Shown piece after piece: positions 15,496 through 55,843 of a stretch of 64,000 nt of DNA. How positions within the stretch are numbered: the first letter of the stretch is position 1; each line of letters begins with the position of its first letter. The stretch lies in the UHGV virus genome UHGV-1550212; one strand, 5' to 3'. This DNA comes from a virus. A program made the translations under genes and the position numbers. The notes below the pieces were generated by a model that worked only from the letters and a program-made list of their open reading frames with translations, made no database searches and had not been told where the DNA came from.

Positions 15496-16044
15496 TTAGC
15501 CTGCAAACTCATTGATTTTTAGGTCATTTGTCGTAACTGCAAAGCAATCAATGTGCAGCCATGTGACGTCTTTTTCTATACGACAACGATGCGGCAATTC
15601 ATCTGCATGCTCTTTAATGAGCTTTCGCATTTCTGCAGCAGTCATATCTGCAGACTGACAATCAATTGCTGCGCCATTACAATGAGCACTCAAATAAAGC
15701 TTGTTTGCAAGCGTTTTGTCTTTTGGAATTTGACAAATATTGCATCGTAAGCCACGTTGACTCATTGCGCCGCCTTTAGCCCAATTATTGACACATAACG
15801 GCACTTTCAGCACAAATTTGCGTAATGCAAGCAGCAAATCAAGCAGTTCTCTGTCAAGAAACTGCCAAGAATTATCGCCAAACTTGTCATAGCAGTGTTT
15901 GCATACAAGTTCTTTTATGCTGAAATATTGCTTAAGCTCTGCAATAACAGAGTCTCTTGAAGCACTTGCAATATCTGCAATGTTAGTTATGCTGTTGTTG
16001 CTGTTGTTCATGTTGTCTGTCAAGTTCTTTGCATTTGCACTCAT
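15496..16044 (-). CDS. peptidase M15-family endolysin (L-alanyl-D-glutamate / D-Ala-D-Ala peptidase-like)
   Basis: zinc-binding signature LSAHCNGAAIDC (SxHxxGxAxD) and WLHID; likely start at in-frame ATG 16044 or 16011. Confidence 0.6.
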   Translation of the reverse strand: MSANAKNLTDNMNNSNNSITNIADIASASRDSVIAELKQYFSIKELVCKHCYDKFGDNSWQFLDRELLDLLLALRKFVLKVPLCVNNWAKGGAMSQRGLRCNICQIPKDKTLANKLYLSAHCNGAAIDCQSADMTAAEMRKLIKEHADELPHRCRIEKDVTWLHIDCFAVTTNDLKINEFAG

Positions 16045-16294
16045 TTCGTTCACCCATGACTTTTGTAATACCTGCAGTTGCAAACATGCCTGCGACTGCG
16101 CCAATTATGCCTGCAACTGCGCCAAGTTGTTCAGTTGTTTTGCCAGTTGCTACGACTTCCCATATGATTGCAAAACAAACAACGAGTAATATAAAGATGC
16201 CTATAAAAGTCACAGCTACGACAAAAAATGATTTGACTGACACACCAGTGTCATTCGTCACTAAGTTGCGCATTGTAAATTTGTTGTTATTCAT
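15983..16294 (-). CDS. holin-like small membrane protein (103 aa)
   Basis: two hydrophobic helices (FFVVAVTFIGIFILLVVCFAII; LGAVAGIIGAVAGMFATAGI) and charged C-terminus; overlaps start of the M15 peptidase gene. Confidence 0.4.
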   Translation of the reverse strand: MNNNKFTMRNLVTNDTGVSVKSFFVVAVTFIGIFILLVVCFAIIWEVVATGKTTEQLGAVAGIIGAVAGMFATAGITKVMGERNECKCKELDRQHEQQQQQHN

Positions 16295-16455: not shown

Positions 16456-18111
16456 TTATGCAAGTAGTGTTTGCAGCATATAGCAGCCTTTTGCATATGC
16501 AACAATTGCTTTTGCAGGATTGTTCTTGATGTATGCAGGTAACTTGAGCCAAATCAATGACACAAGTACTTTCTGTCGCAGCGTCAAATCAAGTTCATCG
16601 ATATTGTAGCCAATGACTTTTGCTCTGACATCGCCATCAACATAATCGAATTGCTGATATGCTGACTGATTGAATGCATCATAGCCAGACAAGCCATACG
16701 CAAACTTTGCAATGTCATAATCGATGTCACCTGTCATCTTAACGTCACCAAAGTAGCCTCTTGGGTCAATGAACATGCATTTTGATGAATCTGCACTGAA
16801 CATCGTATTTGACGTATTCGGGTCACCATGAATGAATGACCAATTTTCGCATGCATAGTCAATTGAATCTTCTTGCGACAAGAAGAGTCTTAACTTGCTC
16901 ATCAGTTCATCGAATGGCATCAATGCAATGCCATTGAATGATTTGATGCCTGCTACAAGTGACTTGACTTCAGCATATCTTGCAATAGTAGTCTCAATGT
17001 ACTCTTTGCGCATTGCGTCAATCATTTGTTGTCTGCTAACGGGCCAAATCTCGTCATTGTCAAGATTGCTTGCATGCAATTCATTGATTGACTGCTTGAA
17101 TGTCGTCATGCAGCCGCGCGCAATTGCAGCATATCTACGCTCAATATCAACTTTATTGAGGAACTGATGCACAGTCACTCCGTTAATTTTCGACATTTTG
17201 ATGAAGTCTTCACCAGTTTCAAATATCGATGGAATGACTGTTGATTCTGCATTCATCGCATGACGATACCACTCTTGCTCTTTCTGAATGAGTGCCAAGC
17301 CTCGAGCATTTGTAGCAGATTTTGTAACAATATCGCCATCAATGCTAATGCTATTGAAATATCGCACTTCATTGTCACGTGCAGTCTTGACTGCTTCACT
17401 GACAAATACACCACGTTCACCATATGAATGACAACCAGCAATTTCATATCTGTCTACAAATGTAACGTTGGTCATCAAATCAGCAAAATCAGCATTGCTA
17501 TCATTGTGCTGCATATCAATGACATTGTTATGAAATGCTGCAGGTACATAGTATGCACCGACAATGCCACTATGATATGTTGACTCACATATGTGGTCAA
17601 GCATATATGATTCTGCATCTGCATATGAACCTACTTTGTTGTACACTTCTGCAGGAATAAGATGAAGTCTGCAATCAATATCATTTGACGTGCAGCAAGT
17701 TATGCAGCCAGTTTTGAATTTGTCAAGTGGCAATTCAATATCGCCAAGCCACACATCAGACCAATGATAGAATACATTGCATTCACCAATGTTGTTAGCA
17801 ATAAACATTGCTACATCTGCGCATGCTTTTGCTGAGCCATCAGCTTTGTCATGCACAATAGTTGACAATTTGATATCTGGCGCAAATGCTGCAGCATGTT
17901 CATGAATCATTGCTGCATGAGTGTCATTTGCACATGCAACAATGAATTCATCAAACTGTTGAGCATAGGATGTCAAAATCTTTGCGAGCACTGTTTGTTT
18001 GCCTGCATTTACAAGCGTTTTTGGAATGTAGTTATTACCAGTCATTGTTGACATGCGAGTGCCCAAACCACATGCAATGATTGCTAACACATTTGGATAT
18101 TGATGAGACAT
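16456..18111 (-). CDS. bifunctional sugar-phosphate nucleotidyltransferase / APH-ChoK-fold kinase
   Basis: N-terminal GLGTRM nucleotidyltransferase motif (LAIIACGLGTRMSTM); C-terminal kinase motifs FIHGDPNTSN and MFIDPRG...DIDYDIAKF; ATG at 18111. Confidence 0.7.
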   Translation of the reverse strand: MSHQYPNVLAIIACGLGTRMSTMTGNNYIPKTLVNAGKQTVLAKILTSYAQQFDEFIVACANDTHAAMIHEHAAAFAPDIKLSTIVHDKADGSAKACADVAMFIANNIGECNVFYHWSDVWLGDIELPLDKFKTGCITCCTSNDIDCRLHLIPAEVYNKVGSYADAESYMLDHICESTYHSGIVGAYYVPAAFHNNVIDMQHNDSNADFADLMTNVTFVDRYEIAGCHSYGERGVFVSEAVKTARDNEVRYFNSISIDGDIVTKSATNARGLALIQKEQEWYRHAMNAESTVIPSIFETGEDFIKMSKINGVTVHQFLNKVDIERRYAAIARGCMTTFKQSINELHASNLDNDEIWPVSRQQMIDAMRKEYIETTIARYAEVKSLVAGIKSFNGIALMPFDELMSKLRLFLSQEDSIDYACENWSFIHGDPNTSNTMFSADSSKCMFIDPRGYFGDVKMTGDIDYDIAKFAYGLSGYDAFNQSAYQQFDYVDGDVRAKVIGYNIDELDLTLRQKVLVSLIWLKLPAYIKNNPAKAIVAYAKGCYMLQTLLA

Positions 18112-18137
18112 TGTGTAGTGTTGCTTATATGAAAATA

Positions 18138-18145
18138 TTGTACAA
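18138..18145 (-). promoter_or_regulatory. TTGTACAA promoter-associated motif upstream of nucleotidyltransferase-kinase gene
   Basis: lies in a ~40-nt block nearly identical to 25369..25408. Confidence 0.4.
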
Positions 18146-18182
18146 CATGCATTGCAAATTTGCAATGATACAACATGCATTG

Positions 18183-18440
18183 CTATTTTGCAAGATGACA
18201 ATGCTTACGCCATACTGCAATTTCAACATCTGTAGCAAAATCAAAGTGCAAGCCATGCAATTGTTTCATGTCATATTGACGTCTTGCAATATACTTGTTG
18301 CCAACTCGCTCAACAACAGAACCAACTTCTACTACATTTTTAGAATGTCGTGGCTCATGTAATGGCACTCTGAATATGTATCTGCCATCTAATGTTGACA
18401 TTATATCACCATTGTCAATTATGCCTGTTTGCCTGCTCAT
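18183..18440 (-). CDS. hypothetical protein (85 aa)
   Basis: ORF track. Confidence 0.4.
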   Translation of the reverse strand: MSRQTGIIDNGDIMSTLDGRYIFRVPLHEPRHSKNVVEVGSVVERVGNKYIARRQYDMKQLHGLHFDFATDVEIAVWRKHCHLAK

Positions 18441-18455
18441 TGTTAAAGCATCAAG

Positions 18456-19130
18456 TTATTTTTGAATGTCTGCAAGTTCTGCTGCAATTCTATTGTATGC
18501 TAATATGTGCTTAATTGCGTCATCAAGCAGCTTGTTAAATTCAAGATACTGCTGCAGCACTTTGTCATTCTGCAATGACTGCTCAAGCGCAGCATAATCA
18601 CCTGCAAACGGGCGATTCATTGACAGACCAAAGTTCTTCGCGCATTTAGCATAAAAAGCATTGTACTCTGCAGCATCAATCGGTGTCGCGTCATGAGCAT
18701 TAAGCGCACTTTCACTGAGCAATGGGATTGTAAGTTTTCTGCAACGAGTAAACTCATCTTTGTCGACATACAGCACAGAACAACGAACGACATGGTCTTC
18801 TGCATTCATGCCGCCAGTCAACAAATCCATGTCCCAATCGAAGCAAATGTTGTAGATGTACAGCATCACAGTTCGATGTTTTTTGTAGACAAATTTCCAG
18901 TATCGAGACTTCTTGCATATATCTTTGATATGCTGCAAGTCATGCATAAATTTGTCATACGATATCGCATCAAAGCGAGGCAATGATTTGTTGTCAATGA
19001 ATGCGTTTGCTGCATCTGCACAACGTTTGAATTCTGCTTGATGCATATTTAGCTCTTCTGTGCGCTTTGCTACAAGTGCTTCATATTCTGCTTTTGCAAG
19101 TTCAAGTCTTGCTTCATACAAACTTTGCAT
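18456..19130 (-). CDS. hypothetical protein (224 aa)
   Basis: ORF track; N-terminal coiled-coil-like segment. Confidence 0.45.
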   Translation of the reverse strand: MQSLYEARLELAKAEYEALVAKRTEELNMHQAEFKRCADAANAFIDNKSLPRFDAISYDKFMHDLQHIKDICKKSRYWKFVYKKHRTVMLYIYNICFDWDMDLLTGGMNAEDHVVRCSVLYVDKDEFTRCRKLTIPLLSESALNAHDATPIDAAEYNAFYAKCAKNFGLSMNRPFAGDYAALEQSLQNDKVLQQYLEFNKLLDDAIKHILAYNRIAAELADIQK

Positions 19131-19155
19131 ATTTGTGTACGTTTATGAGTTTCTG

Positions 19156-19611
19156 TTAAAATTTGCCATCTGCTACTTGAAAGCATCGATAGCCAAGCTC
19201 TCGCCATTTAGCAACCATAGAATCACGGTCTTCAAGTATAAACGCGATTTGTTTCAGCTCATCTTCAGACAAGGCTTCTACAAGCAATTCAGGCTTGACA
19301 AGTGTATCATGACGTTTATCACCATCTTTTCGCATAAGAATTTGCGGATTGACGATTCTGCCATCTGTATGCTGTGCAAGCCAAATTTCTGTCATTTGTC
19401 TACAGCTTTCACGACGACCTGTGCAGAATATGATTCTGTAGCCAACTTGCTGCAAATCGCAAAGCAAGTCAAGCACAGTCATAATGGGCATGTCTTCATG
19501 ACAGTGTGCATAAAACGCATCCCAATCTTTGTTTGATTGTTGAAGATATTTTAGACGGTCGCCAACTTTTGAAATTGTTCCGTCAATGTCGCATATAATG
19601 ATATTTGCCAT
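19156..19611 (-). CDS. HAD-superfamily phosphatase
   Basis: motif I IIICDIDGTI (DxDGT), downstream Thr and acidic motifs; ATG at 19611. Confidence 0.6.
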   Translation of the reverse strand: MANIIICDIDGTISKVGDRLKYLQQSNKDWDAFYAHCHEDMPIMTVLDLLCDLQQVGYRIIFCTGRRESCRQMTEIWLAQHTDGRIVNPQILMRKDGDKRHDTLVKPELLVEALSEDELKQIAFILEDRDSMVAKWRELGYRCFQVADGKF

Positions 19612-19629
19612 GATGTGTATGCTTATGAA

Positions 19630-19656
19630 AGGAAGAGCTCAATTGAGCTCTTCCTG
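19630..19656 (-). terminator. terminator hairpin (palindrome aggaagagctcaattgagctcttcct)
   Basis: perfect inverted repeat with the same caattg loop as hairpins at 22852 and 35654. Confidence 0.55.
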
Positions 19657-19685
19657 ATAGTCAACTTGATAAACCTCTACGAAAA

Positions 19686-20558
19686 TCAAGCCTGACTACT
19701 TTTGTTGATTACGAGATACTTGTATCGTTCTTTGATTGTGATGTTCTTTGATTTTGCAGCCTCGATTTCTTTGCGTTCCTTGGAGGAATAGTTGAACTTG
19801 ATATAGTCGGAGAACAATTCGGGCTTATCTGCTACTTCATTGTTCTTGACTTCTTTTACAAGAGTTTGCTGAAACTCATTGATTGTAGTGAAACCGAGGA
19901 ATGACTGGAACTTGTTAAGCGGAAACAGCTTATCTGTGTTGTCCTCGAATGTCGGGAATTCGTCAGAATACGTAATTTCAATTTGGTCTACAAAATATCT
20001 GAGTTTTTCCCAGGGTTCCTTGCCAATGAGGAGAATGTTCTGATGGTCGAGTTTTTCCTCGAACATTTCCAGGAGACATTCGTATGATTTTACGAGACGA
20101 ACTCCAGGATATGTAATTGATGCAATTGAACGAGGTTTGTGAGTCGTCTTAACTTCTTTATTGTACGTTTCCTCGTCAATGCAATAGATGTATCGCTTAA
20201 CCTTGTCGTATTCTTTAGGAAGATAGTTGTTGTCAAGGAATTGCTTGTCAACTACAATGAAACTGAAAGGATAGAGTTCATTGAATCGTTGGCGAAGCTG
20301 TTCTGTTGCAAGGAAGAAATGCGAGCCATCTTTTGCTGCAAATTCCATATTTGAATTGCATCCTGCATATGCAATGTATCTGTTTCGCTTCCATTTGAGG
20401 AATCGACTTACCAGGTTCTTTTCGAAGATGTCCTTGTATTTGAAGTTAGTGTCCCAGTACTCCTTAACAATTCCATCTTGCATTTTTCTTGACAATTTTG
20501 AATTGTCTACCGGCCTATCAGTAAAAACTGAAGGTTTGTTTGCGTTGTATAATCCCAT
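19686..20558 (-). CDS. hypothetical protein (290 aa) with atypical C-ending codon usage
   Basis: ORF track; TATAAATA late-promoter-like box and conserved leader upstream; codon usage resembles the capsid gene rather than neighbours. Confidence 0.5.
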   Translation of the reverse strand: MGLYNANKPSVFTDRPVDNSKLSRKMQDGIVKEYWDTNFKYKDIFEKNLVSRFLKWKRNRYIAYAGCNSNMEFAAKDGSHFFLATEQLRQRFNELYPFSFIVVDKQFLDNNYLPKEYDKVKRYIYCIDEETYNKEVKTTHKPRSIASITYPGVRLVKSYECLLEMFEEKLDHQNILLIGKEPWEKLRYFVDQIEITYSDEFPTFEDNTDKLFPLNKFQSFLGFTTINEFQQTLVKEVKNNEVADKPELFSDYIKFNYSSKERKEIEAAKSKNITIKERYKYLVINKSSQA

Positions 20559-20653
20559 TGTAGTAGAGGTTTGTTAATTTATTATTTATAGATATATAAT
20601 ACTACGACAATGCAAATTTTGCACTGTCGTAGCATAAAAGTTTACACATTTTT

Positions 20654-21004
20654 TTACAAATGTGAGAACAACTTATTCGTAACTCGTTCAATTGCAAATT
20701 CAACACCATATTGCAATAACTGTTCAGTGCTAAATGACCTTGCTGCACGTGCAGGTGCTACAATATGCTTTGATTGCGCATACAAAATCCAAGTATCAGT
20801 TGGCCTGTCATAAGTAACTGTCAGTCTGTATGTTTGCAACACAAACTCTTGACTAAAGTGTTCTCTTCGCCAAAACTCTGGTTCTGCAATATGCAAATCA
20901 AACCAAGCAAACTCAAACAAGATTTGTTCGAGTTGACGTTGATGCTTGCGTTCAGCACGATATGTACCGCTGAACAGATACTTGATGATGTTCATCATTT
21001 GCAA
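20654..21004 (-). CDS. hypothetical protein (116 aa)
   Basis: ORF track. Confidence 0.4.
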   Translation of the reverse strand: MQMMNIIKYLFSGTYRAERKHQRQLEQILFEFAWFDLHIAEPEFWRREHFSQEFVLQTYRLTVTYDRPTDTWILYAQSKHIVAPARAARSFSTEQLLQYGVEFAIERVTNKLFSHL

Positions 21005-21711
21005 TCATTATGCTGAGTATGAATTGCGTTGCCCTGTGAATCCAAGCGAATCGCAGTTTGCATTGCGACTTCAGATTGTATTTGTTCTGCCACATAAGAC
21101 TTTCCGATGCCCCCGCCTGGATGTACTGCCCTGAACCTATCAAAATCTGTGCCCAGCTGCTCAGCAACAGACAGCATGATATTATCACCAACGAGCTGAG
21201 ATGCCAGCAGAGAATTCGTCGGAATTCGCGGATTGCGTGAGTCCTCATCAATTGCTGGCAATGACACAAGCAAATCTGCCCAAGCATTCATATCAGTGAC
21301 CTTGCCACCAGCAAAGTTGATGCCAATGATTTGGCAATTCGGTGCAAGCAATTCACGATGTTCACGAAGATATGTCATTGCAGTTGCAAGTTCAGATGTG
21401 TTGCCAGTTTTGCTGAATGCTACAATAACATCGTTGTTTCGAATCATGCCAAAGTCACCATGCATTGCATGCACTGCATCAAAGAATGATGCGTTCAATG
21501 ACAAGCAATAACATGTTGCAGCAAGTTTTTCACAGCAATGCACATTTTTACCAATGCCAGTGAACAACACTTTGCCATCAGACTTCAATGCATTTGCAAT
21601 GATATCTGCTGCAATACCAAGAACGTCATATTGCGCATCTGAAATATTGTTGTGCCATGCTACAAGCGATTCAACTGATGCAGCAATGCCTTTGTGTACA
21701 AGTGTTTTCAT
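20995..21711 (-). CDS. SIS-domain sugar-phosphate isomerase (KdsD/KpsF arabinose-5-phosphate isomerase-like, no CBS domains)
   Basis: GKVLFTGIGKN...KLAAT...FFDAVHAMHGDFGM...DVIVAFSKTGNTSEL matches the KdsD SIS pattern; ATG at 21711. Confidence 0.6.
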   Translation of the reverse strand: MKTLVHKGIAASVESLVAWHNNISDAQYDVLGIAADIIANALKSDGKVLFTGIGKNVHCCEKLAATCYCLSLNASFFDAVHAMHGDFGMIRNNDVIVAFSKTGNTSELATAMTYLREHRELLAPNCQIIGINFAGGKVTDMNAWADLLVSLPAIDEDSRNPRIPTNSLLASQLVGDNIMLSVAEQLGTDFDRFRAVHPGGGIGKSYVAEQIQSEVAMQTAIRLDSQGNAIHTQHNDCK

Positions 21712-21730
21712 TTTTGTGATGTTTGAAGGT

Positions 21731-22411
21731 TCAAAGAAACTTGAGTTTTGACAGCATTTCAGTGTCTTGTTCAGTGTTGATGCAGAGCTCTTGCATAACA
21801 TCAAGCAATGCAGACCATAATTGCTCATATGATTTGCCGTTGTTCATAACAACAGCGTCAACAAACAGCTCATCTATGTGTTGTTCACTTGAATGACTGA
21901 TGTTTTGCTTGACATCATCATTGACAATTTTAATGAGTTTGAAACCTCTTGAACGCAATGCGGTCGCTTCGTTTGGATATCGACAATCGCCAACACAAAT
22001 AAGTGCTTCATTATGACAATTGTCAAGTCGATACAGCAAACTGTTTACAAAGAAGTCTTCACCATACAGTTTCTTGAGCGCATCTGAAACATCAAGATGC
22101 ACATTGCGAATCGATGAACCTGCAAACTCTACAAAGTGTTTCTGTTTGAATGCATTGTTATGCAAGTCTTGCAAATTGTAGCCCAGTGTACTTGCAATAA
22201 ATGCTTTCAGTGGCTTTGCAAAGCACTCATATGCAAGATTGCAGCCACATGGCCAGTATGGATTTGCTTCAATTTGCTGCAAAGTTGATGTGTAAATGCC
22301 ATCAATTACAGTGAACTTGCATTTAGTCATGACTCGAATCATCGCCCAAGCCAAATCTTTGCCTACGCCTGCATGACCAACAAGCGCAATTTTTGTTATG
22401 TCATCATTCAT
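21731..22411 (-). CDS. P-loop nucleotide kinase-like protein (dNMP kinase-like)
   Basis: Walker A-like KIALVGHAGVGKD near N-terminus. Confidence 0.45.
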   Translation of the reverse strand: MNDDITKIALVGHAGVGKDLAWAMIRVMTKCKFTVIDGIYTSTLQQIEANPYWPCGCNLAYECFAKPLKAFIASTLGYNLQDLHNNAFKQKHFVEFAGSSIRNVHLDVSDALKKLYGEDFFVNSLLYRLDNCHNEALICVGDCRYPNEATALRSRGFKLIKIVNDDVKQNISHSSEQHIDELFVDAVVMNNGKSYEQLWSALLDVMQELCINTEQDTEMLSKLKFL

Positions 22412-22793
22412 TGCACCACTGTTTAAGAGTCACAAAATTGTTGAAGTCTGCATAAAAGTCATCACCACCGTTAAGCATTGCGACATTCTCAAGTTCATTG
22501 AGAATGATTTGCTTATCAATGACTATTGCAAGAGCGTCAAAGTCTTCTTTTGATTGCAAGTTAAGTAGCACAGGATGACCTTTGAGTCTTGTAGTTAATG
22601 TTGCTGGCAGTCTATGCACAGACTTCTTTTTCTTTGACTGCGTAGGATGTTTTGAGCGCTTTCTTGTAGCAGTCAGCTGAATATCATAATCAATTTCAAG
22701 CAAACCTGCATCTTGCATTACAAAATTGAGATTAACATGCACAGGATACTTTTGCTGAATGTCTATGAATTCTTGTAATTTGTCGTTTATCAT
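22404..22793 (-). CDS. hypothetical protein
   Basis: ORF track 22404..22886; probable start at in-frame ATG 22793 just downstream of a TTGTACCA motif and hairpin. Confidence 0.4.
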   Translation of the reverse strand: MINDKLQEFIDIQQKYPVHVNLNFVMQDAGLLEIDYDIQLTATRKRSKHPTQSKKKKSVHRLPATLTTRLKGHPVLLNLQSKEDFDALAIVIDKQIILNELENVAMLNGGDDFYADFNNFVTLKQWCNE

Positions 22794-22851
22794 TTGAAAT
22801 GCATTTGTATATGATAATTGTACCACGTATGCATCAACTTTGCACACAAAA

Positions 22852-22879
22852 CAAGACCAGCTCAATTGAGCTGGTCTTG
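22852..22879 (-). terminator. terminator hairpin (caagaccagctcaattgagctggtcttg)
   Basis: perfect palindrome; identical core to 35654..35681. Confidence 0.55.
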
Positions 22880-22897
22880 CGGTCATATGTAGACTTC

Positions 22898-23470
22898 TTA
22901 AAATTTGGATAGACTCGTAGTATCAAGCGATGCAATTGAATCAATGCGCAAAGAATCTGCTATAGGTGCGCAATCATCAATTGGGTGACTTGCAGGCTTA
23001 ACTTTGAGCATATACATTCTGCAGTTGCCAATATCTATAAGGGAACCAGAACGTGTCATATAATCACAGCCCAAAATGCCAACGACTTCATGACCAAGTG
23101 CTTTGCTAAGCTGAACTAAAATAGGCGAAATGTCATCAATAAACATGTCCAGCTCTACAGAGCCATTTGCGATAGTAATGTCTGCATCTATTGCATGAGA
23201 TACTTGAAGAGCCCCTGTGACATATGATAGTCGCTTAACTGAACGCTCTTTGCCAACCATGTCATGAGTAGCAACAAATGTGCTATCAATCAATGACAAT
23301 GACGCGCCAGTATCAAGCAAAAGCCATGCATCGACACCATTGACATTTGCATGTACAAATGGCAGGCTCTTCAAAACAATCGGTGACTGTGATTGCTGCA
23401 ATGCTTCATTGCACATTGTCAGCGTCATAATCGCAAGTAGCGATATAAGAAACAATTTGAATGCTTTCAT
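22898..23470 (-). CDS. secreted retropepsin-like aspartic protease
   Basis: N-terminal signal-peptide-like MKAFKLFLISLLAIMTLTMC; catalytic motif LLLDTGASLSLI. Confidence 0.55.
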   Translation of the reverse strand: MKAFKLFLISLLAIMTLTMCNEALQQSQSPIVLKSLPFVHANVNGVDAWLLLDTGASLSLIDSTFVATHDMVGKERSVKRLSYVTGALQVSHAIDADITIANGSVELDMFIDDISPILVQLSKALGHEVVGILGCDYMTRSGSLIDIGNCRMYMLKVKPASHPIDDCAPIADSLRIDSIASLDTTSLSKF

Positions 23471-23474
23471 AAGG

Positions 23475-25232
23475 CTACTCTGCTTTTGTTGCTTGCATCA
23501 GTTCAGCAAAGCTTACAGTGTAAGCATCTTCACCAACAGTCACATATGCAGCATCAACATTTGAGTCATTGCCTGTGTATGCAACCAAGGTGCCTGCTGG
23601 AATTTCTACACCGTCAATTGTTAGCATCGAATTGACAAGCTTGTATGTCTTGTTATCTTCGAAGTTCTCATTGACATATGCAGCAGCAATCATTGTTGAA
23701 CGTTTACGAGATTCATTGACAAAGCTTGCGCCAACAAGTTCTGACAGCTTCTTCTTTGTTGCTGCAGAGCATTTGTCATATGCAATGTCAATTGCGAGGT
23801 CTACATCACCAAGTTCCTTTGCAATGAGTTCATCAATCTGAGACAGCTTCTTGTCATCTTTGACAGCGACAAAATTCATTGCAAACTTGCGAGCGTTGTC
23901 TGACAATGATTCATCAATGTTCCACTGTTTCATCAATGTCTGCTTCAACACCTTGTCAAGTTCTGACCAGTCCTTATCTGCAAGAGTAGTTGCATCAAAG
24001 TCTTCATTGCTGAACTGCTTCAGCACTTTGACTTTGTCATCATGTGACAATGCTGACCACTTGTTTGCAGCGTCTTCAGCAGATTCAAGCAGAGGCTTGA
24101 TTGCATCTTTGAGTTCTTGCGGCCAAGTTTCAGGCGCTTTGAGCAGCATCTCAGATGAGTTGTACTCAAGCATGTCTGTCATGATTGCAAGCTTGACATT
24201 GTTAGCTTTCTCTTCAGGTGACAGAGCTTTGAATTTTTCAGCCCAGTCTTCAGATTCAGTCACGATTGATGCAGGCTTTGCAAAACCAGCAACAAAAACG
24301 AGCTTGTACATGATGTTCGTCATGAATGAGCAAGCTGCATCGATATCTGACTGAGTTGCTGCAGATTGAGCATCACGAATGTTGAGCAATGCCTGACGAA
24401 GAGACATAATGCCTACAACAGGGTCAGACCATGTCAATACAACTGAACTATCGATTGTGATGCCCTTGTCAAATCGCATATTTTCTGCAATGCGGTCAGC
24501 AAGTTCAGGCAGTTCAGTGTAGTACTGCTCAAGCGCTGCATGTGCAGCAGGAATTGAAACTTTTGCAGCATCAAATGCGTTGTTGATGTGCATAACATGC
24601 GCAGTTTGAATTGACTGCATCAACATCGACACTACTGCAGATTCTGTTGCAACATCATCTGTTGCAGCTTCATTAACAAATGACGCCATTGCATTTTGCA
24701 GCATGTATTGATGGTCTCGTACTGGCAACTCAACAATTTCAAAGCCTTCAAGAGACTTTGGCGAATCAGTTGCTGAACCTGCTTCAAGACACTTCTTTGA
24801 TGCATTGTCAATGACAAACCACATCTTTTGTGCTTTGAGTGCAATGTAAGTCTTGTCTTTTGATTGCTGAACAGTCATGTTGTCAAGAGCCAACGCACTG
24901 ATTGGCAAATTCTTGACTGCTGACTTGTCAAGTGCTTCATTGACTGCTACATTGTCATCACTCATTAACTGAGTATTTGCAGCAAATGTTGCAGAATCAA
25001 TGCTAAGCTCTTTGCCATCAGGCATAGAGAACTTAACTGCATCTGCAACATCAAGCACTTGCACCATGGCGCCTGCTTCGACTTTGTCATCACCAACAGC
25101 GAACTCAGTTACAACCTGATATGCCTTGTTAGCTTCAACAGTTTCAACAGACTCCATAATGAACTTTGCTGTACTGCAAGAGATTTTGTGCTTTTTCATG
25201 TTCATGTATGAATTTGAGTGTTTGTTGTTCAT
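23475..25232 (-). CDS. hypothetical acidic protein (585 aa), candidate head/internal protein
   Basis: ORF track; motifs SFVNE-A, SFVNE-S, YVNE-N, AVNE-A. Confidence 0.5.
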   Translation of the reverse strand: MNNKHSNSYMNMKKHKISCSTAKFIMESVETVEANKAYQVVTEFAVGDDKVEAGAMVQVLDVADAVKFSMPDGKELSIDSATFAANTQLMSDDNVAVNEALDKSAVKNLPISALALDNMTVQQSKDKTYIALKAQKMWFVIDNASKKCLEAGSATDSPKSLEGFEIVELPVRDHQYMLQNAMASFVNEAATDDVATESAVVSMLMQSIQTAHVMHINNAFDAAKVSIPAAHAALEQYYTELPELADRIAENMRFDKGITIDSSVVLTWSDPVVGIMSLRQALLNIRDAQSAATQSDIDAACSFMTNIMYKLVFVAGFAKPASIVTESEDWAEKFKALSPEEKANNVKLAIMTDMLEYNSSEMLLKAPETWPQELKDAIKPLLESAEDAANKWSALSHDDKVKVLKQFSNEDFDATTLADKDWSELDKVLKQTLMKQWNIDESLSDNARKFAMNFVAVKDDKKLSQIDELIAKELGDVDLAIDIAYDKCSAATKKKLSELVGASFVNESRKRSTMIAAAYVNENFEDNKTYKLVNSMLTIDGVEIPAGTLVAYTGNDSNVDAAYVTVGEDAYTVSFAELMQATKAE

Positions 25233-25368
25233 ATGATATGATATATATCAAGTGCAGCAATTGAACAGATTGCAAAAACAATGCTCAGACTGTAAAGTCT
25301 GAGCATTGAACGACTAAATTGTACATCTTCCACAATGATATAGAATCATTGTTAATATTGTATTGATA

Positions 25369-25453
25369 TTGTACAACATGCATTGCATATTTGCAATGAT
25401 ACAACATGCAAAATGCACTTGCACTTTGATGCAAAGTACTGCGTACACAACAT
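25369..25453 (-). promoter_or_regulatory. intergenic regulatory cassette: TTGTACAA motif plus 29-nt element duplicated at 26556..26584
   Basis: 25425..25453 tttgatgcaaagtactgcgtacacaacat is identical to 26556..26584; 25369..25408 nearly identical to 18138..18178. Confidence 0.45.
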
Positions 25454-25482
25454 GCATCGCGTATTTGCATTTTGACGCAATG

Positions 25483-26505
25483 TCATTGTTGTTTATGCCA
25501 GCCATATGATGCCTGACCAGCATCATACACTTCTACGAAGCCATGGTCGTACATAAAATCTTCATTACGAGTGCCCTTGCCCCCATTAGTGCCAAGAATA
25601 CGGTCTGCGCCATGCATAAGCAGCATATTATTTGTGACATGTTGCTTTGTCAGCATATTGAACCAGTGTTTGCTATATGACAAGCCAAGACCATCAAAGC
25701 CCAGCTTTGTGTACACACCACCGTCAAACTTGCTTAAATCACAATATGATAACACAGATTCAGGGTCATATGTCTTGATAAAGTGCTTAAAGATTCGTTC
25801 AGCACCACCAACAACTTTGGTTGCTGCACAAAGACGTAGCAATTCATATTGATAGCGCTTATTGTATCGTGGACGACCAAATGTCATAAGTTGATGAATG
25901 ACATAACCACCAAGCAACTCAAGTGGATGACCTTCAATCAACGCAAGATTGATAAAATTGCCTGAGCACTTGCCTTGCAAATGATGTTCAATCAAAAATT
26001 GATTTGCAGTATACTTGTCAATTTCAACAACTTTAAGCTTGCGAGCATATACAATCTTTGATTTGTCTACGATTTGATGCTTGATGTGATTGATAACTTT
26101 CTTGGCGTCATCCCAGTCCCACACATGAATGCAATGAAAGCCTGCTGATTTGGCGATGTCTGTTTTCTTTGCATGAATATCACAAGGCAAATGCGAATCT
26201 TTTGCATCATGCATAAACAGATGTTCAAATGAATGTGTGCTGTTATGTGAAAATGCAGGATTGATGTTAATGACAATATTGTCATGTCGAAAATCGAAGA
26301 CTTCATCGCCAATGACAAAGTTGCGCTCAAAATTTATACCGACATGTTTGAGTAACACTTGATGCCACACATCTTTATAGGCTGATTCAAGCTTGCTTAG
26401 CTCATCACAGTTTGCAATGTTTTTGTAACGTTGAATAGCAGCATCAAAGTCAAGATTGACTTCAGCGTAGTCTGCATTTTTATCGTAGTGAAATTTTGAG
26501 CTCAT
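25483..26505 (-). CDS. Vsr/DUF559-like nuclease-domain protein (paralog family; N-terminal nuclease module, extra C-terminal domain)
   Basis: NIVININPAFSHNS and GFHCIHVWDWDD match the family module; C-terminal GFVEVYDAGQ tail; ATG at 26505. Confidence 0.5.
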   Translation of the reverse strand: MSSKFHYDKNADYAEVNLDFDAAIQRYKNIANCDELSKLESAYKDVWHQVLLKHVGINFERNFVIGDEVFDFRHDNIVININPAFSHNSTHSFEHLFMHDAKDSHLPCDIHAKKTDIAKSAGFHCIHVWDWDDAKKVINHIKHQIVDKSKIVYARKLKVVEIDKYTANQFLIEHHLQGKCSGNFINLALIEGHPLELLGGYVIHQLMTFGRPRYNKRYQYELLRLCAATKVVGGAERIFKHFIKTYDPESVLSYCDLSKFDGGVYTKLGFDGLGLSYSKHWFNMLTKQHVTNNMLLMHGADRILGTNGGKGTRNEDFMYDHGFVEVYDAGQASYGWHKQQ

Positions 26506-26528
26506 GTGTATAATTTTGTATGAGATTA

Positions 26529-26536
26529 TTGTACAA
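26529..26536 (-). promoter_or_regulatory. TTGTACAA promoter-associated motif
   Basis: about 20 nt upstream of ATG 26505. Confidence 0.4.
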
Positions 26537-26612
26537 CATGCAAATGCATGTTGCATTTGATGCAAAGTACTGCGTACACAACATAAAGTACAAGTTTGTC
26601 TTTTGATAGACT

Positions 26613-27674
26613 TTACTTTGTATTGCTACGCGTCATTGTTAAATGACCGCAATCATACACATCAACTTCTGTTTTGCCAAGCATGCATGTATGACAATTT
26701 ATTTTGAAATCTGCTGCAGCGTAATCAGGATAGTTTAGTGGAGATTCTTTTGACAAATCAATTTCAATTGTGTCAGTAGTTTTAAGCTGTTCAGTACCTG
26801 CAATGATATCTGCAATAAGATTGATAACTTCTTCTTGTGAATCCCAATCAAACACAGTTATGCAACGATAGCCTACATCAAGTGCAAGTTTTGTTTTATT
26901 GTAATGGTATTGCGCACCAATAACATTGTTGTCTTTTGCTCGACCAGTTAAATATGCAAAACTAACAGTGCAGTTGTGCGTAACTGTTGGACAAATTTCT
27001 ATAAGTAACTTTGCAGGCTCATACTGCAAATCATATGTTTGATTATTGATGTTAAACTCGTACTGTGTATCAATTGCCAACTGTCGTAATAACGCATCAT
27101 GCCACATCATATTACATTTAGAAATTGTTTTGGATGACAATCTGCATTGAGGCAATTGACATGGCCAATCTACGCCGTACATTTGTTGTGTTGTTTGACG
27201 CATTTTGTTAACATCACCAAAATGATTGCCATATCGATGCTCTTTGGTTTTAAGCGACTGCTCAATATTGACATTGCCTACACAACCATAACGTTCAAGT
27301 TTTGTTGCAGCAGTTTTGCTAACATCACCATGTCCATTACCAAATTTGGCGACTTTAGTTGCAAGTATTTTATGACTTGGGCCAAATGCATTGCCATACA
27401 ATTCTTGTTTAGTCGCAAGCATTTTGTCGATATTACAACCAGCGCCATAAGTGTTATGCATAGTTTGCATACGCTGTCGAATAAATTTTGGCACAGATAA
27501 AGGACTTTCTACACCATATTTGCGTAAGCAACTGATTTTGCATGCGTACTTTTGCTTGATGACAGAATGTGCATTTCGACGTCCTATGTAAGTATTTTCT
27601 GATGTAGCAGCAAGCTCTGCATCTCTAAGAACTTCAAGTGCAGCAATTCGTGCTTCAATTTCTTCAGATGTCAT
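26613..27674 (-). CDS. RYG-repeat / Vsr-DUF559-like nuclease (putative free-standing homing endonuclease)
   Basis: seven ~21-aa tandem repeats each with R/K-Y-G (KYG, TYG, LYG, KFG, RYG, RYG, MYG); C-terminal LLIEICPTVTHNCT...GYRCITVFDWDS...VDVYDCGH. Confidence 0.55.
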   Translation of the reverse strand: MTSEEIEARIAALEVLRDAELAATSENTYIGRRNAHSVIKQKYACKISCLRKYGVESPLSVPKFIRQRMQTMHNTYGAGCNIDKMLATKQELYGNAFGPSHKILATKVAKFGNGHGDVSKTAATKLERYGCVGNVNIEQSLKTKEHRYGNHFGDVNKMRQTTQQMYGVDWPCQLPQCRLSSKTISKCNMMWHDALLRQLAIDTQYEFNINNQTYDLQYEPAKLLIEICPTVTHNCTVSFAYLTGRAKDNNVIGAQYHYNKTKLALDVGYRCITVFDWDSQEEVINLIADIIAGTEQLKTTDTIEIDLSKESPLNYPDYAAADFKINCHTCMLGKTEVDVYDCGHLTMTRSNTK

Positions 27675-28021: not shown

Positions 28022-29737
28022 TCAAATCCAGCCGTAGTCGCTGTGGATAGCGAAGGTGAGATAAGCCAACTCGGGATACATACCCGTCTCCGCGAGAGCG
28101 TAATCCGACTCAATCAGCAACTTAGGTGCTGCTGTACCCTCAGCGGTTAATTCCACACTTGATGCAAGGTCATATGGCATGAATACACATCCCTGGTTGA
28201 CATTCTCTACGTCAACGCCGTCAGCAGTCTTGTTCGTACGAAGAACGAGAACAGTGTTATCGTTCAGCGGCTGCTTAGGATTGCAATAGATTTTAATGCC
28301 AGCCAAGTCACCTGCATAATACAGGTTCTTGTTGTCCTGTACCAGCGTATTGTCAAGAGCTGCAACAAAGTTCTTCTGAGCCTTAATTGCAACCAAGGCA
28401 ATCGTATTGACCACAGCAGCATCACCAGCACCGAAACGCGACAGGTTGCCAATGATTGTCGAAGCAGCCAGGATACGAGTTGCGATACGAGCCTGACGGG
28501 TAATCTGGTTCTCAGCCGAGCTGTTCGATTCAGCGTTAGGAACCATGCCGAACTCAGCCGTGCGGTCTACACCCATCTTGTCAACGAATGCAGGAGCCTG
28601 GAATTCCGAGAATGCCTTGGCAGTCGAACCAGCGTAGCCAATGTACAAGTTCAGGTTGTAGCCCTGAGCAGCCAACAGCTGAGCATGTGTCGTAACACCA
28701 AGTGCACGCATGCGCTTCAGACCATTGTCGTTGATTGACTGCGTGATTTCATTCTGCATTGCATTCTTGATGATTGCAACTGCATCCAAACCGCGAGCAC
28801 GGAGGTCCTTAACCTGGCGACGAGTCAGAGCACCCCAAGTCTGGTACGTCTTAACTTCGATAGCCTTTGAGAAGGTGCGGAGCTCCAGCATGTTCGGGTT
28901 GCCAGCCTCAGCCTCAGAACGAGACATTGGATTGCCGTCAAGGTCATCCATTGCAGCGAAGCCGTGGATGTGTTCGTCACCAGCCGAAACCAGGTCGAAC
29001 ATAACCTCAGTCATGCCAGTCAGCATGTCAGTTACAGCACCTGTAGCGTCAACCGAGTAGATTTTCGATGCAGCCATTGCAACATCAGCCAACGACTTGT
29101 CAGGAGCAACAGTCATTGCGCCACCAGCGCCAACGGTATATACGCCTTCATTGCGAACTACGAGGTAGCCTGCAACACGCGATACCTGTACGAACGTTAC
29201 CTTGGCAGCAAGCTCACCAGCAGCTGAACCGCCGATGTACAGAACTTGACCCTTCTTGAGGCCATGAACCATTGTCTGCGAAGCAACATTGTACAACTCC
29301 TTCCACTTGATGAGGAAGTAGCGAGGACCCTTGGCTGCGTTCAACTTGCCACCACCATACACGTAGTCTACATAGTCCAGCTGAACCAGCGGGCTGTATA
29401 CAGGAATGGCCGGGAGCAGGTCGAACAGAATCGTGTTGGCTGCGATGTTCATGTTCAGAGCCAGAACATTGGCAGCTACATCGATTGAACCACGCTTACG
29501 CGACGGGTCATGGAACTGTGCTTGCGTACCTGGGTCAGCAGGGAAAGCGACCGGACCTACGCCATTGAGATTCTGCGAATACGTCGACTCAAACGACTCG
29601 TTCATATACTGAACGTTCTGAGCGATTGATGCGAGCAGATACTTCTTAGCGGGCGAAAGCTTGGAGTCAAACGACTCATCAAGAACAGGGCCCCACTTTT
29701 TCAGCAATGCATCAATCTGTGTACGTTTTGCGTTCAT
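28022..29737 (-). CDS. major capsid protein (T4 gp23-like)
   Basis: N-terminus MNAKRTQIDALLKKWGPVLDE parallels the gp23 N-terminal pattern; 571 aa; markedly GC-rich C-ending codon usage; followed by a strong terminator. Confidence 0.7.
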   Translation of the reverse strand: MNAKRTQIDALLKKWGPVLDESFDSKLSPAKKYLLASIAQNVQYMNESFESTYSQNLNGVGPVAFPADPGTQAQFHDPSRKRGSIDVAANVLALNMNIAANTILFDLLPAIPVYSPLVQLDYVDYVYGGGKLNAAKGPRYFLIKWKELYNVASQTMVHGLKKGQVLYIGGSAAGELAAKVTFVQVSRVAGYLVVRNEGVYTVGAGGAMTVAPDKSLADVAMAASKIYSVDATGAVTDMLTGMTEVMFDLVSAGDEHIHGFAAMDDLDGNPMSRSEAEAGNPNMLELRTFSKAIEVKTYQTWGALTRRQVKDLRARGLDAVAIIKNAMQNEITQSINDNGLKRMRALGVTTHAQLLAAQGYNLNLYIGYAGSTAKAFSEFQAPAFVDKMGVDRTAEFGMVPNAESNSSAENQITRQARIATRILAASTIIGNLSRFGAGDAAVVNTIALVAIKAQKNFVAALDNTLVQDNKNLYYAGDLAGIKIYCNPKQPLNDNTVLVLRTNKTADGVDVENVNQGCVFMPYDLASSVELTAEGTAAPKLLIESDYALAETGMYPELAYLTFAIHSDYGWI

Positions 29738-35653: not shown

Positions 35654-35681
35654 AAAGACCAGCTCAATTGAGCTGGTCTTT
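35654..35681 (-). terminator. terminator hairpin (aaagaccagctcaattgagctggtcttt)
   Basis: perfect palindrome identical in core to 22852..22879. Confidence 0.55.
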
Positions 35682-55842: not shown

Positions 55843-55843
55843 A

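What the first reader, a model, noticed from the sequence alone, without database searches (positions are those of the whole stretch)
22898..23470. Secreted retropepsin-like aspartic protease in a phage genome
A 190-aa protein has a signal-peptide-like N-terminus (MKAFKLFLISLLAIMTLTMC) followed by a single LLLDTGAS active-site motif typical of dimeric retropepsin-like (clan AA) proteases. An exported aspartic protease is unusual for a lytic myovirus. It could act on host envelope proteins, on a receptor, or in superinfection exclusion.
Basis: partly seen in the sequence, partly recalled or inferred. Interest (0 to 1): 0.5.

Follow-up and report, generated by a model that had tools for sequence, protein, structure and literature searches.

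The report
Exported retropepsin-like protease in jumbo phage
A large phage that probably infects Bacteroidota carries a real, well-conserved gene for a small HIV-protease-like aspartic protease that carries an export/lipid-anchor signal and so probably works in the host's periplasm; similar uncharacterised genes exist in other phages, so it is a solid but not unprecedented find whose target is unknown.

Summary
ORF 22898-23470 (minus strand, 190 aa) has an n-region/h-region signal ending at an invariant Cys20, followed by a single retropepsin domain (D53-T-G-A-S and I132-L-G-C-D).

- **Selection:** dN/dS is 0.03-0.13.
- **Genome:** an uncultured ~175-kb sheath-tailed phage of the PAU/PTm1/MA9V jumbo group. 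Genes lack Shine-Dalgarno sites, which suggests a Bacteroidota host.
- **Conservation:** the gene sits in the same slot in at least 7 diverged lineage members (32-98% identity), directly after an acidic DUF5856 protein. In two lineages it is followed at once by a terminator.
- **Localisation:** lipobox LTMC is non-canonical, but orthologues have IIAC and VVAC. There is no Bacteroidota surface-export signal, so the protein probably faces the periplasm.
- **Precedent:** relatives are exported proteins of marine Bacteroidota, and uncharacterised copies occur in crAss-like phages, a megaphage, a prophage and other viral contigs.

Identity is well supported, but the substrate and role are only inferred. 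I rate it a new member of a known kind, of moderate interest.

The parts
22898..23470 (-). CDS of the 190-aa retropepsin-like protease (stop TAA at 22898-22900)
   Evidence: ORF list; Pfam PF13650 above the gathering cut-off; dN/dS 0.03-0.13.
23414..23470 (-). Signal peptide, residues 1-19: n-region MKAFK plus h-region LFLISLLAIMTLTM
   Evidence: Hydropathy and charge; predicted helix 2-21. The sequence varies but stays hydrophobic in the orthologues.
23411..23413 (-). Cys20, the putative lipidation site (lipobox L-T-M-C)
   Evidence: Invariant in the 5 close homologues and aligned with the Cys of P0005, P0006, P0008, P0009 and P0010. P0008 (IIAC) and P0009 (VVAC) are canonical. Met at -1 is non-canonical.
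23003..23392 (-). Retropepsin-fold catalytic domain, residues 27-156
23300..23314 (-). Catalytic motif D53-T-G-A-S
   Evidence: Coordinates. D53 is invariant and G55 is at least 90% conserved in 107 sequences.
23171..23251 (-). Long beta-hairpin, residues 74-100, at the position of the retropepsin flap
   Evidence: Strands 74-83 and 86-100 in the model. The 'flap' assignment is by analogy and is inferred.
23063..23077 (-). Second signature I132-L-G-C-D (hydrophobic-hydrophobic-Gly, psi-loop partner)
   Evidence: G131 and G134 are at least 90% conserved in 107 sequences; the motif is defined in PMC4140852.
22901..23002 (-). C-terminal tail, residues 157-190; disordered and present only in the closest clade
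   Evidence: pLDDT below 50 for residues 171-190; absent from P0005-P0018; dN/dS about 0.3 against about 0.1 for the core; a 5-aa indel in L011.
22851..22880 (-). Intrinsic-terminator-like hairpin, 18 nt after the stop codon (13-bp stem, loop AATT, then TTTGTGTG)
   Evidence: RNA fold -27.8 kcal/mol, z = -4.8. A position-equivalent terminator of unrelated sequence is present in L012. An identical 24-mer recurs at 35656-35679.
23475..25232 (-). Upstream partner gene: 585-aa acidic (net charge -32) DUF5856-like protein without a signal peptide; its stop is 4 nt before the protease ATG
   Evidence: Its orthologue lies directly upstream of the protease in L011, L012, L023, L024, L028 and L029.
25279..25308 (-). 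Terminator-like hairpin upstream of the two-gene unit
   Evidence: 13-bp stem followed by TTTTTGCAAT.

Best explanation
The gene encodes a functional, single-domain clan-AA (retropepsin-like, Pfam PF13650) aspartic protease.

Proposed mechanism:
- The Sec pathway exports it from the host cytoplasm.
- It is most probably lipidated on Cys20 and tethered to a membrane by a linker of only about 6 residues.
- Its catalytic domain faces the periplasm.
- Like other retropepsins, it would act as a homodimer, each subunit supplying one Asp53 to the active site. The lipid anchors would sit on the N-terminal 'platform' side and the substrate cleft would point away from the membrane.

It is a vertically conserved gene of a lineage of ~175-kb sheath-tailed phages (PAU/PTm1/MA9V-like) whose host is probably a Bacteroidota bacterium. 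It is co-transcribed as the last gene of a short unit with an acidic DUF5856 protein. Its ancestry lies in a family of small exported proteases of Bacteroidota.

The most likely role is cleavage of one or more host envelope proteins during infection. That would be envelope takeover: removing or disabling a receptor or transporter (superinfection exclusion, or protecting progeny from re-adsorption), or otherwise remodelling the periplasm.

What is shown: the gene, its selective constraint, family and fold membership, intact catalytic motifs, the export-type N-terminus, the conserved position and the phage context.

What is inferred: lipidation, periplasmic orientation, dimerisation, catalytic activity, substrate class and biological role.
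For: Family and fold:
- Pfam PF13650 scores above its cut-off.
- A family profile matches SASPase, Ddi1, FIV/EIAV/HIV proteases and APRc in the PDB at E 3e-11 to 5e-7.

Active site: D53 is invariant and G55, G131 and G134 are at least 90% conserved in 107 sequences.

Constraint: dN/dS 0.03-0.13 overall and 0.08-0.10 in the core.

Export:
- Positive n-region, a 14-residue h-region and an invariant Cys.
- Orthologues carry canonical lipoboxes IIAC and VVAC.
- About 86% of 208 single-domain relatives have an N-terminal hydrophobic signal. 59 are lipobox-like and 53 are SPI-type obeying the Bacteroidetes Q-rule (PMC5837995 abstract).

Periplasm-facing: only one acidic residue follows the Cys, whereas the surface-export signal needs at least two (PMC5080379).

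Phage and host:
- Gp23 capsid protein, sheath, portal and prohead protease are present.
- The nearest capsid proteins are in Chryseobacterium, Tenacibaculum and Sphingomonas jumbo phages.
- Only 1 of 48 genes has an SD-like site.
- Named cellular relatives are all Bacteroidota.

Conservation in the lineage: same position in L011, L012, L023, L024, L027, L028 and L029.

Transcription unit: terminators bracket the pair, and L012 also has a terminator right after the protease.

Moron-like relative: P0015 sits at a prophage edge, on the opposite strand to the lysis genes.

Precedent for exported bacterial retropepsins acting on envelope biology: RloA (PMC11957051) and APRc (PMC4140852).
Against: - Lipobox LTMC has Met at -1 and fails both the DOLOP-type and PROSITE-type patterns. 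An uncleaved signal anchor, or signal peptidase I cleavage, cannot be excluded.
- No SignalP or LipoP run was possible.
- Dimerisation and activity were not testable.
- The flap tip (VTGA) lacks the Gly-rich GxGG of the family consensus.
- No substrate is indicated by context. The neighbours are a cytoplasmic acidic protein and nucleotide-metabolism genes, and the whole MCP-to-endolysin region is collinear across the lineage. Conserved adjacency may therefore only reflect collinearity.
- Expression timing is unknown.
- The host is inferred, not known.
Confidence: 0.6

Rival explanations
1. Lysis accessory. The tethered protease cuts outer-membrane-to-peptidoglycan tethers or other envelope scaffolds late in infection, helping outer-membrane disruption in a host for which no spanin is recognisable.
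For: It is a lipoprotein-type exported protein, like o-spanins. It lies in the same strand block as an endolysin-like gene (15496-16104) and a 2-TM ORF (15983-16294). The distant relative P0015 sits next to a holin/lysozyme cassette in a prophage. The transcription unit directly follows the late capsid gene.
Against: It lies about 7 kb from the endolysin, separated by at least 6 nucleotide-metabolism genes. In the L014-L018 phages and in crAss-like cr128_1, relatives sit in replication modules. In the prophage the gene is on the opposite strand to the lysis genes.
Confidence: 0.12
2. Surface-exposed or released enzyme. The protein is flipped to the cell surface or shed (for example on outer-membrane vesicles) and acts outside the infected cell, on neighbouring cells, matrix or surface receptors.
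For: Many Bacteroidota lipoproteins are surface-exposed (PMC5080379). APRc presents its catalytic domain to the outside.
Against: The residues after Cys20 (N-E-A-L-Q-Q) contain one acidic residue, and the orthologues have 0-1. The minimal surface-export signal needs at least two acidic residues after a polar or basic residue.
Confidence: 0.08
3. Catalytically dead or non-proteolytic retropepsin-fold protein that works by binding, for example by blocking a periplasmic host protein or receptor domain, as small phage exclusion lipoproteins do.
For: Activity is untested. The flap tip is atypical. APRc also has a non-proteolytic moonlighting (Ig-binding) function (PMC8649778, abstract).
Against: DTGAS and ILG are intact. 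D53 is invariant across 107 relatives, and purifying selection is strongest in the core.
Confidence: 0.07
4. Processing enzyme for a phage protein, either an exported phage product or the co-transcribed DUF5856 protein, rather than for host proteins.
For: There is a 4-nt spacing to the DUF5856 gene, and the pair is kept in every lineage member with upstream DNA. Retropepsins classically process their own polyprotein partners.
Against: The DUF5856 protein has no signal peptide or TM segment, so it would be in a different compartment. The whole region is collinear, so adjacency is weak evidence. Relatives in other phages lack this partner.
Confidence: 0.08
5. Cytoplasmic or virion maturation (prohead) protease, with the N-terminal hydrophobic stretch not acting as an export signal.
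For: The gene lies downstream of the major capsid gene.
Against: A separate prohead-protease domain exists at the N-terminus of the 1399-aa protein at 35705-39904 (phrog_207, E 4e-32). The positive-inside n-region plus h-region and the invariant Cys argue for export. No PHROG head-protease family matches.
Confidence: 0.03

Closest known systems
Pfam PF13650 (Asp_protease_2), 'retropepsin-like aspartic protease' proteins of Bacteroidota (e.g. Ekhidna, Catalinimonas, Tunicatimonas, Flexithrix)
   Same: Single retropepsin domain of about 150-180 aa with an N-terminal export signal (lipobox or SPI with Q-rule), plus DTGAS and ILGxD motifs.
   Different: Those are chromosomal cellular genes of unknown function, at 22-33% identity. 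The phage clade adds a tail of about 30 aa and has Met at -1 of the lipobox.
Annotated but uncharacterised phage retropepsins: crAss-like 'aspartyl protease' (cr128_1 QOR59679.1, noted as present in phiCrAss001; cr111_1 A0A7M1RY13), 'Retropepsin-like protein' of CrAss-like virus ctDAq1 (A0A8S5QUR9), Myoviridae sp. ctNQV2 (A0A8S5S0H9)
   Same: Phage-encoded proteins of similar size (153-182 aa) with the same fold, aligning over 165-175 columns including the N-terminal helix. The hosts are Bacteroidota or gut phage lineages.
   Different: Sequence identity is only 15-25%. The cr128_1 protein has a short hydrophobic N-terminus without a lipobox Cys and sits between the dUTPase and DNA polymerase I genes. 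None has a published function.
Rickettsia APRc (RC1339), PDB 5c9b/5c9d/5c9f
   Different: APRc has three predicted N-terminal TM helices, is surface-exposed and autoprocesses. Here there is one signal/lipobox segment. Identity is 11-13%.
Pseudomonas RloA / PA0462 secreted retropepsin-like peptidases (PDB 9g59)
   Different: They belong to a different Pfam family (classified as 'zinc protease', RimB-like). They lie in an operon with transglutaminase-like and ATP-grasp genes and cleave Glu-rich sequences. No sequence-level match was found here.
Eukaryotic Ddi1 RVP domain and SASPase/ASPRV1; lentiviral proteases (EIAV, FIV, HIV)
   Same: Best sequence-profile and structural matches. They share the dimeric retropepsin architecture and motifs.
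   Different: Those are cytosolic or virion enzymes, embedded in larger proteins or polyproteins, with no export signal.
Small phage-encoded outer-membrane lipoproteins used for superinfection exclusion (T5 Llp, Cor) and o-spanins (lambda Rz1); recalled from general knowledge, not tested here
   Same: Phage-encoded, lipoprotein-type export, acting on the host envelope.
   Different: Those are small non-enzymatic proteins. o-Spanins are paired with i-spanins next to the lysis genes, and no such arrangement is seen here.

Membership tests
Clan AA retropepsin-like aspartic peptidases (Pfam PF13650) | Profile-HMM score above the curated gathering threshold | tested here: met
   29.2 bits against a cut-off of 24.3, residues 39-136 covering model positions 1-89 of 90. 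RVP, RVP_2 and gag-asp_proteas score just below their cut-offs.
Clan AA retropepsin-like aspartic peptidases (Pfam PF13650) | Catalytic Asp-Thr/Ser-Gly-Ala motif | tested here: met
   D53-T54-G55-A56-S57. D53 is invariant and G55 is at least 90% conserved in 107 relatives.
Clan AA retropepsin-like aspartic peptidases (Pfam PF13650) | Hydrophobic-hydrophobic-Gly motif forming the psi loop with the DTG loop | tested here: met
   I132-L133-G134; G131 and G134 are at least 90% conserved. The motif definition is taken from PMC4140852.
Clan AA retropepsin-like aspartic peptidases (Pfam PF13650) | Retropepsin beta-barrel fold | tested here: met
Clan AA retropepsin-like aspartic peptidases (Pfam PF13650) | Homodimer with the two Asp residues at the interface | not testable with these tools
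Clan AA retropepsin-like aspartic peptidases (Pfam PF13650) | Proteolytic activity dependent on the catalytic Asp; inhibitor sensitivity | not testable with these tools
   This needs an experiment.
Bacterial lipoproteins (Sec / signal peptidase II substrates) | Positively charged n-region followed by a hydrophobic h-region of 7-22 residues | tested here: met
   K2 and K5, then L6-M19; maximum 11-residue hydropathy 2.65.
Bacterial lipoproteins (Sec / signal peptidase II substrates) | Lipobox [LVI][ASTVI][GAS]-C | tested here: inconclusive
   The window has L-T-M-C, and Met at -1 fails the pattern. Orthologues at the aligned Cys: P0004 LYAC (passes the PROSITE-type rule), P0008 IIAC and P0009 VVAC (canonical), P0005 FCMC and P0006 FVMC (Met again).
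Bacterial lipoproteins (Sec / signal peptidase II substrates) | Invariant Cys at +1 | tested here: met
   C20 is invariant in the 5 close homologues and aligned in P0005-P0010.
Bacterial lipoproteins (Sec / signal peptidase II substrates) | Actual diacylglyceryl modification and LspA cleavage | not testable with these tools
   This needs palmitate labelling, globomycin treatment and a C20A mutant.
Surface-exposed Bacteroidota lipoproteins (LES-bearing) | Lipoprotein export signal: K-(D/E)2 or Q-A-(D/E)2 (or SDDDD-like) at +2 to +6 | tested here: not met
   C-N-E-A-L-Q-Q has one acidic residue, and the orthologues have 0-1. The rule is taken from PMC5080379.
APRc-type membrane-embedded retropepsins (Rickettsia) | Three N-terminal transmembrane helices preceding the catalytic domain | tested here: not met
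   There is a single N-terminal hydrophobic segment and no other TM peak. The APRc architecture is described.
RloA/RimB-type retropepsin-like peptidases | Membership of the RimB-like family that Pfam classifies as 'zinc protease' (per PMC11957051), and rloB/rloC or rimK operon partners | tested here: not met
Phage prohead (head-maturation) proteases | Homology to known prohead-protease families and a cytoplasmic/capsid location | tested here: not met
   No PHROG head-protease match. A separate phrog_207 prohead-protease domain is present at 35705-39904. An export signal is present.
o-Spanins | Small outer-membrane lipoprotein gene paired with or embedded in an i-spanin gene, beside the endolysin/holin genes | tested here: not met
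   The endolysin-like gene lies about 7 kb away, with unrelated genes between. The protein is an enzyme-sized 190 aa.
PADLOC candidate defence system PDC-M08 (component B) | Significant match to the PDC-M08B model plus the system's partner genes | tested here: inconclusive
   Weak hits at E 1.6e-5 and 4.6e-5 (21-23 bits) cover only the retropepsin core. The neighbours gave no PADLOC hit. This probably reflects the shared domain only.

The most novel reading that the evidence does not exclude
Exported, membrane-tethered retropepsins may be a so far unrecognised class of phage effector specific to phages of Bacteroidota (jumbo PAU-like phages, crAss-like phages, megaphages and temperate phages). 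Such an effector would proteolytically edit the host envelope from the periplasmic side. It could destroy a receptor or transporter to block superinfection, or cut outer-membrane tethers as a protease-based substitute for spanins. In this lineage the effector has become a fixed core gene.
Probability: 0.2. Interest if true: 0.7.

Novelty: new member of a known kind. Interest (0 to 1): 0.4.

Why it matters
Phage proteins that act in the periplasm are few, and those known (exclusion lipoproteins, spanins) are non-enzymatic. A phage-encoded periplasmic protease kept under strong constraint across a whole jumbo-phage lineage, with analogues in crAss-like phages, would point to proteolytic editing of the Bacteroidota envelope as an infection strategy.

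Bacteroidota phage biology (receptors, exclusion, outer-membrane lysis) is poorly understood and matters for gut and marine ecology. The family also offers small, tractable bacterial and phage retropepsins for enzymology.

At present, however, only identity and localisation signals are established. The gene class is already annotated in databases, which limits the surprise.

Tried and rejected
- Megablast of 7 kb around the gene and tblastn of the protein against 50,697 GenBank phage records: no match. tblastn with the L018 relative: no match.
- PHROGs, NCBIfam and single-sequence PDB searches of the protein: nothing significant.
- First AF2 run with the 5-sequence alignment: pLDDT 36.7, unusable. 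It was replaced by a 107-sequence alignment.
It was repeated with 11 sequences.
- AFDB fold search: library unavailable.
- Model coordinates were not exposed, so the C135-C150 disulfide and the dimer geometry could not be examined. C150 is not conserved outside the closest clade, so I dropped the disulfide argument.
- The partner DUF5856 protein gave nothing informative: no phage, PDB or literature information, and only close unnamed homologues.
- Literature searches for phage retropepsins or crAss aspartyl proteases found no functional study.
- A signal peptidase I site exposing Gln (the Bacteroidetes Q-rule) was considered for the conserved QQSQ after the Cys. I rejected it because -1 Leu and -3 Glu do not fit, and because only the Cys is conserved in the diverged orthologues.
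- The prohead-protease reading was rejected.
- Promoter class and expression timing could not be resolved from the intergenic motifs.

Full report
**1. Observation**

The ORF is real. On the minus strand, 22898-23470 reads ATG to TAA and gives 190 aa, beginning MKAFKLFLISLLAIMTLTMC and containing a single LLLDTGAS. The finding did not mention the strand. The upstream gene ends 4 nt before the ATG.

**2. Family and fold**

- Pfam PF13650 (Asp_protease_2) matches residues 39-136 at 29.2 bits, above the curated 24.3. RVP, RVP_2 and gag-asp_proteas fall just below their cut-offs.
- PHROGs, NCBIfam and a single-sequence PDB search gave nothing significant.
- The word-indexed search of 5.8 billion proteins found only four homologues (64-98% identity), all from metagenomes.
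- An exhaustive profile search of 1.84 billion representatives found 436 relatives. Most are single-domain proteins of 140-180 aa.
- In a 107-sequence alignment D53 is invariant, and G55, G131 and G134 are at least 90% conserved. These are the DTG motif and the hydrophobic-hydrophobic-Gly motif that define retropepsins (definition in PMC4140852).
- The profile of this alignment hits solved SASPase, Ddi1, FIV/EIAV/HIV proteases and Rickettsia APRc at E 3e-11 to 5e-7.
- AF2 with five sequences failed (pLDDT 36.7). With 107 sequences it gave pLDDT 86.7: an N-terminal helix (2-21), a beta-rich core (27-154, above 90) and a disordered tail (171-190).
- Nei-Gojobori dN/dS against five homologous genes is 0.03-0.13. 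It is about 0.08-0.10 in the core and about 0.3 in the tail.

This is a constrained protein-coding gene with an intact catalytic apparatus.

**3. Export signal**

- The N-terminus has two lysines, a 14-residue hydrophobic stretch and then Cys20. It is the strongest N-terminal signal among 64 minus-strand ORFs.
- Cys20 is invariant in the close homologues. It aligns with a Cys at the end of the h-region in the diverged orthologues P0005, P0006, P0008, P0009 and P0010.
- The window's lipobox L-T-M-C fails the standard patterns because of Met at -1.
- However, P0008 (I-I-A-C) and P0009 (V-V-A-C) are canonical, P0004 passes the PROSITE-type rule, and P0005 and P0006 repeat the Met. I read this as a lipoprotein family tolerating Met at -1. 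An uncleaved anchor cannot be excluded, and either way the positive-inside n-region puts the domain outside the cytoplasm.
- Across 208 single-domain relatives, a rough classifier finds 59 lipobox-like and 53 with an SPI-type '[AGS]-Q' site. The latter is the Bacteroidetes Q-rule (PMC5837995, abstract). A further 67 have other hydrophobic N-termini and 29 have none. The family is therefore predominantly exported.
- The Bacteroidota surface-export signal needs at least two acidic residues just after the Cys (PMC5080379). Here the sequence is C-N-E-A-L-Q-Q and the orthologues have 0-1 acidic residues. A periplasm-facing location is therefore more likely than surface exposure.
- Only about 6 residues separate Cys20 from the first strand. 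A dimer would then be held close to the membrane by its N-terminal platform, with the cleft facing away (inference).

**4. Genome context**

- Almost all genes are on the minus strand.
- Upstream lie a Gp23-type major capsid protein (28022-29737), a tail sheath, a 1399-aa protein with an N-terminal prohead-protease domain, a portal protein and several homing-endonuclease-like genes.
- Downstream lie a dNMP kinase, a SIS/arabinose-5-phosphate-isomerase-like protein, a polynucleotide kinase/phosphatase, a 581-aa nucleotidyltransferase-like protein and an endolysin-like gene with an adjacent 2-TM ORF.
- The nearest capsid proteins (33-37% identity) belong to Chryseobacterium MA9V-1/2, Sphingomonas PAU and Tenacibaculum PTm1/pT24 jumbo phages.
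- An exactly matching partner protein lies on a 174,628-bp JGI contig. A 95%-identical copy of the protease lies on a 175,564-bp IMG/VR contig.
- Only 1 of 48 genes has an SD-like 4-mer upstream, and the upstream regions are 42% A. Together with the Bacteroidota affiliation of all named cellular relatives, this suggests a Bacteroidota host.
- The 'myovirus' label is supported by the sheath gene. 'Lytic' was not tested.

**5. Conservation in the lineage and the transcription unit**

- Local tblastn shows that L012 (capsid protein 74% identical) keeps the order capsid, DUF5856 protein, protease (33% identical), dNMP kinase, 290-aa protein, nucleotidyltransferase, endolysin.
- L024 shows the same order, with a clear PF19174 call on the 741-aa partner.
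- L023, L028 and L029 have the partner's C-terminus directly upstream. L027 keeps the downstream genes.
- The gene is therefore fixed in at least seven diverged members. Because the whole region is collinear, adjacency to the DUF5856 gene is not by itself proof of functional coupling.
- Strong minus-strand terminator hairpins lie after the capsid gene (27791-27761), just before the DUF5856 gene (25308-25279) and 18 nt after the protease stop (22880-22851; -27.8 kcal/mol, z -4.8).
- L012 has a terminator of unrelated sequence at the equivalent position. L027 does not, and in L022 the terminator comes one small gene later.
- The DUF5856 protein is acidic (net charge -32), Ala-rich, lacks a signal peptide or TM segment and has no informative relatives.

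**6. Other phages**

- The viral structure library lists similar-sized phage proteins already annotated as retropepsin-like or aspartyl protease. They come from Myoviridae sp. ctNQV2, a crAss-like virus and the uncultured phage cr111_1.
- In crAss-like cr128_1 an 'aspartyl protease' sits between the dUTPase and DNA polymerase I genes. Its annotation note cites phiCrAss001. That protein has a short hydrophobic N-terminus but no lipobox Cys.
- A 735-kb megaphage also carries a relative.
- IMG/VR contigs confirmed as phage by helicase, primase, polymerase and tail genes encode relatives with clear lipoprotein signals, in varied contexts.
- P0015 sits at the edge of a Bacteroidota prophage, beside the holin/lysozyme genes but on the opposite strand. 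This is a moron-like position.
- No consistent partner gene emerges across these phages, which favours a host target.
- I found no paper that characterises any phage retropepsin.

**7. Mechanism and rivals**

- The best-supported reading is an exported, probably lipid-anchored, periplasm-facing, dimeric aspartic protease that cleaves host envelope proteins during infection (confidence about 0.6). Identity and export alone rate about 0.8-0.85. Any specific role, such as exclusion, rates no more than 0.3.
- Precedents for exported bacterial retropepsins influencing envelope biology are RloA (PMC11957051) and APRc (PMC4140852).
- Rivals are a lysis accessory (0.12), a surface or released enzyme (0.08), a phage-protein processing enzyme (0.08), a non-catalytic binder (0.07) and a prohead protease (0.03). 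Evidence for each is given in the structured fields.
- A weak PADLOC match to candidate system component PDC-M08B (E 1.6e-5) probably reflects the shared domain only.

**8. Verdict**

The gene is a genuine member of the PF13650 retropepsin-like family in a phage of the PAU/PTm1-like jumbo group. It is rarer than most phage genes but not unprecedented. I rate it a new member of a known kind, with interest 0.4, because its localisation and lineage-wide fixation make a testable case for proteolytic envelope editing by Bacteroidota phages.

Noticed in passing
window 22854-22877 and 35656-35679: An identical 24-nt palindrome (AGACCAGCTCAATTGAGCTGGTCT) occurs twice: once right after the protease gene, and once between the 1399-aa prohead-protease gene and the tail sheath gene. 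None is expected by chance. It looks like a reused terminator cassette. A similar hairpin with the AATT loop lies upstream of 19156-19611.
   Followed up: partly
window intergenic regions, e.g. 27761-27700, 25279-25233, 22851-22791, 54430-54571, 60307-60460: Terminator hairpins are followed at once by 'TTTTTGCAA', and several genes are preceded by a 'TGCAA(A)-N16-18-GTACAAT/GTATAAT' element. These look like terminator-promoter modules of a sigma-70-like shape, which is odd for a phage whose SD-less genes suggest a Bacteroidota host.
   Followed up: partly
window 25233-25482: The 250-nt gap between a homing-endonuclease gene and the DUF5856 gene holds a promoter-like site (25396-25368, TTGCAA-17-TACAAT), followed about 60 nt later by a strong terminator (25308-25279). 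This could be a short RNA or a leader.
   Followed up: no
window 25483-26565, 26613-27674, 29826-31217, 42982-44220: Four paralogous homing-endonuclease-like genes (phrog_3339/559, DUF7487) flank the major capsid and portal genes. In the relative L012 the interval between the capsid and DUF5856 genes shows no match to them, which suggests they are mobile insertions.
   Followed up: partly
window 53138-54430 and 56724-58229: The family-B DNA polymerase appears split into two ORFs. The downstream ORF matches the C-terminal half and the upstream ORF matches the N-terminal half of phrog_262. Four small ORFs lie between them (54572-56709).
   Followed up: no
window 35705-39904: A 1399-aa protein whose first ~350 residues match a head-maturation protease (phrog_207, E 4e-32). 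The remaining ~1000 residues are unassigned. Its C-terminal part is conserved in L012 and L024 (39-40% identity).
   Followed up: no
window 16456-22411: A cluster of SIS/arabinose-5-phosphate-isomerase-like (20995-21828), 581-aa nucleotidyltransferase-like (16456-18201), HAD/PNK phosphatase (19156-19611) and dNMP kinase (21731-22411) genes. It resembles a nucleotide-sugar pathway that could serve DNA hypermodification or envelope sugar metabolism. This is my inference from general knowledge and was not tested.
   Followed up: no
window 22404-22886: The listed 160-aa ORF starts inside the terminator hairpin. Gene callers on near-identical contigs start it later (115 or 129 aa), so its true start is probably downstream of 22851. 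It has no homologue in L012 and no family match.
   Followed up: partly
window 15496-16294: An endolysin-like ORF (phrog_894) overlaps a 103-aa ORF with two hydrophobic segments (15983-16294). This is a likely holin/endolysin pair, and no spanin candidate was recognised nearby.
   Followed up: no
L025 8001-11042 / L026 157-3199: In a Bacteroidota prophage the retropepsin relative P0015 lies beside lysozyme, holin and BACON-domain genes. In L025 the host genes follow on its other side.
   Followed up: partly
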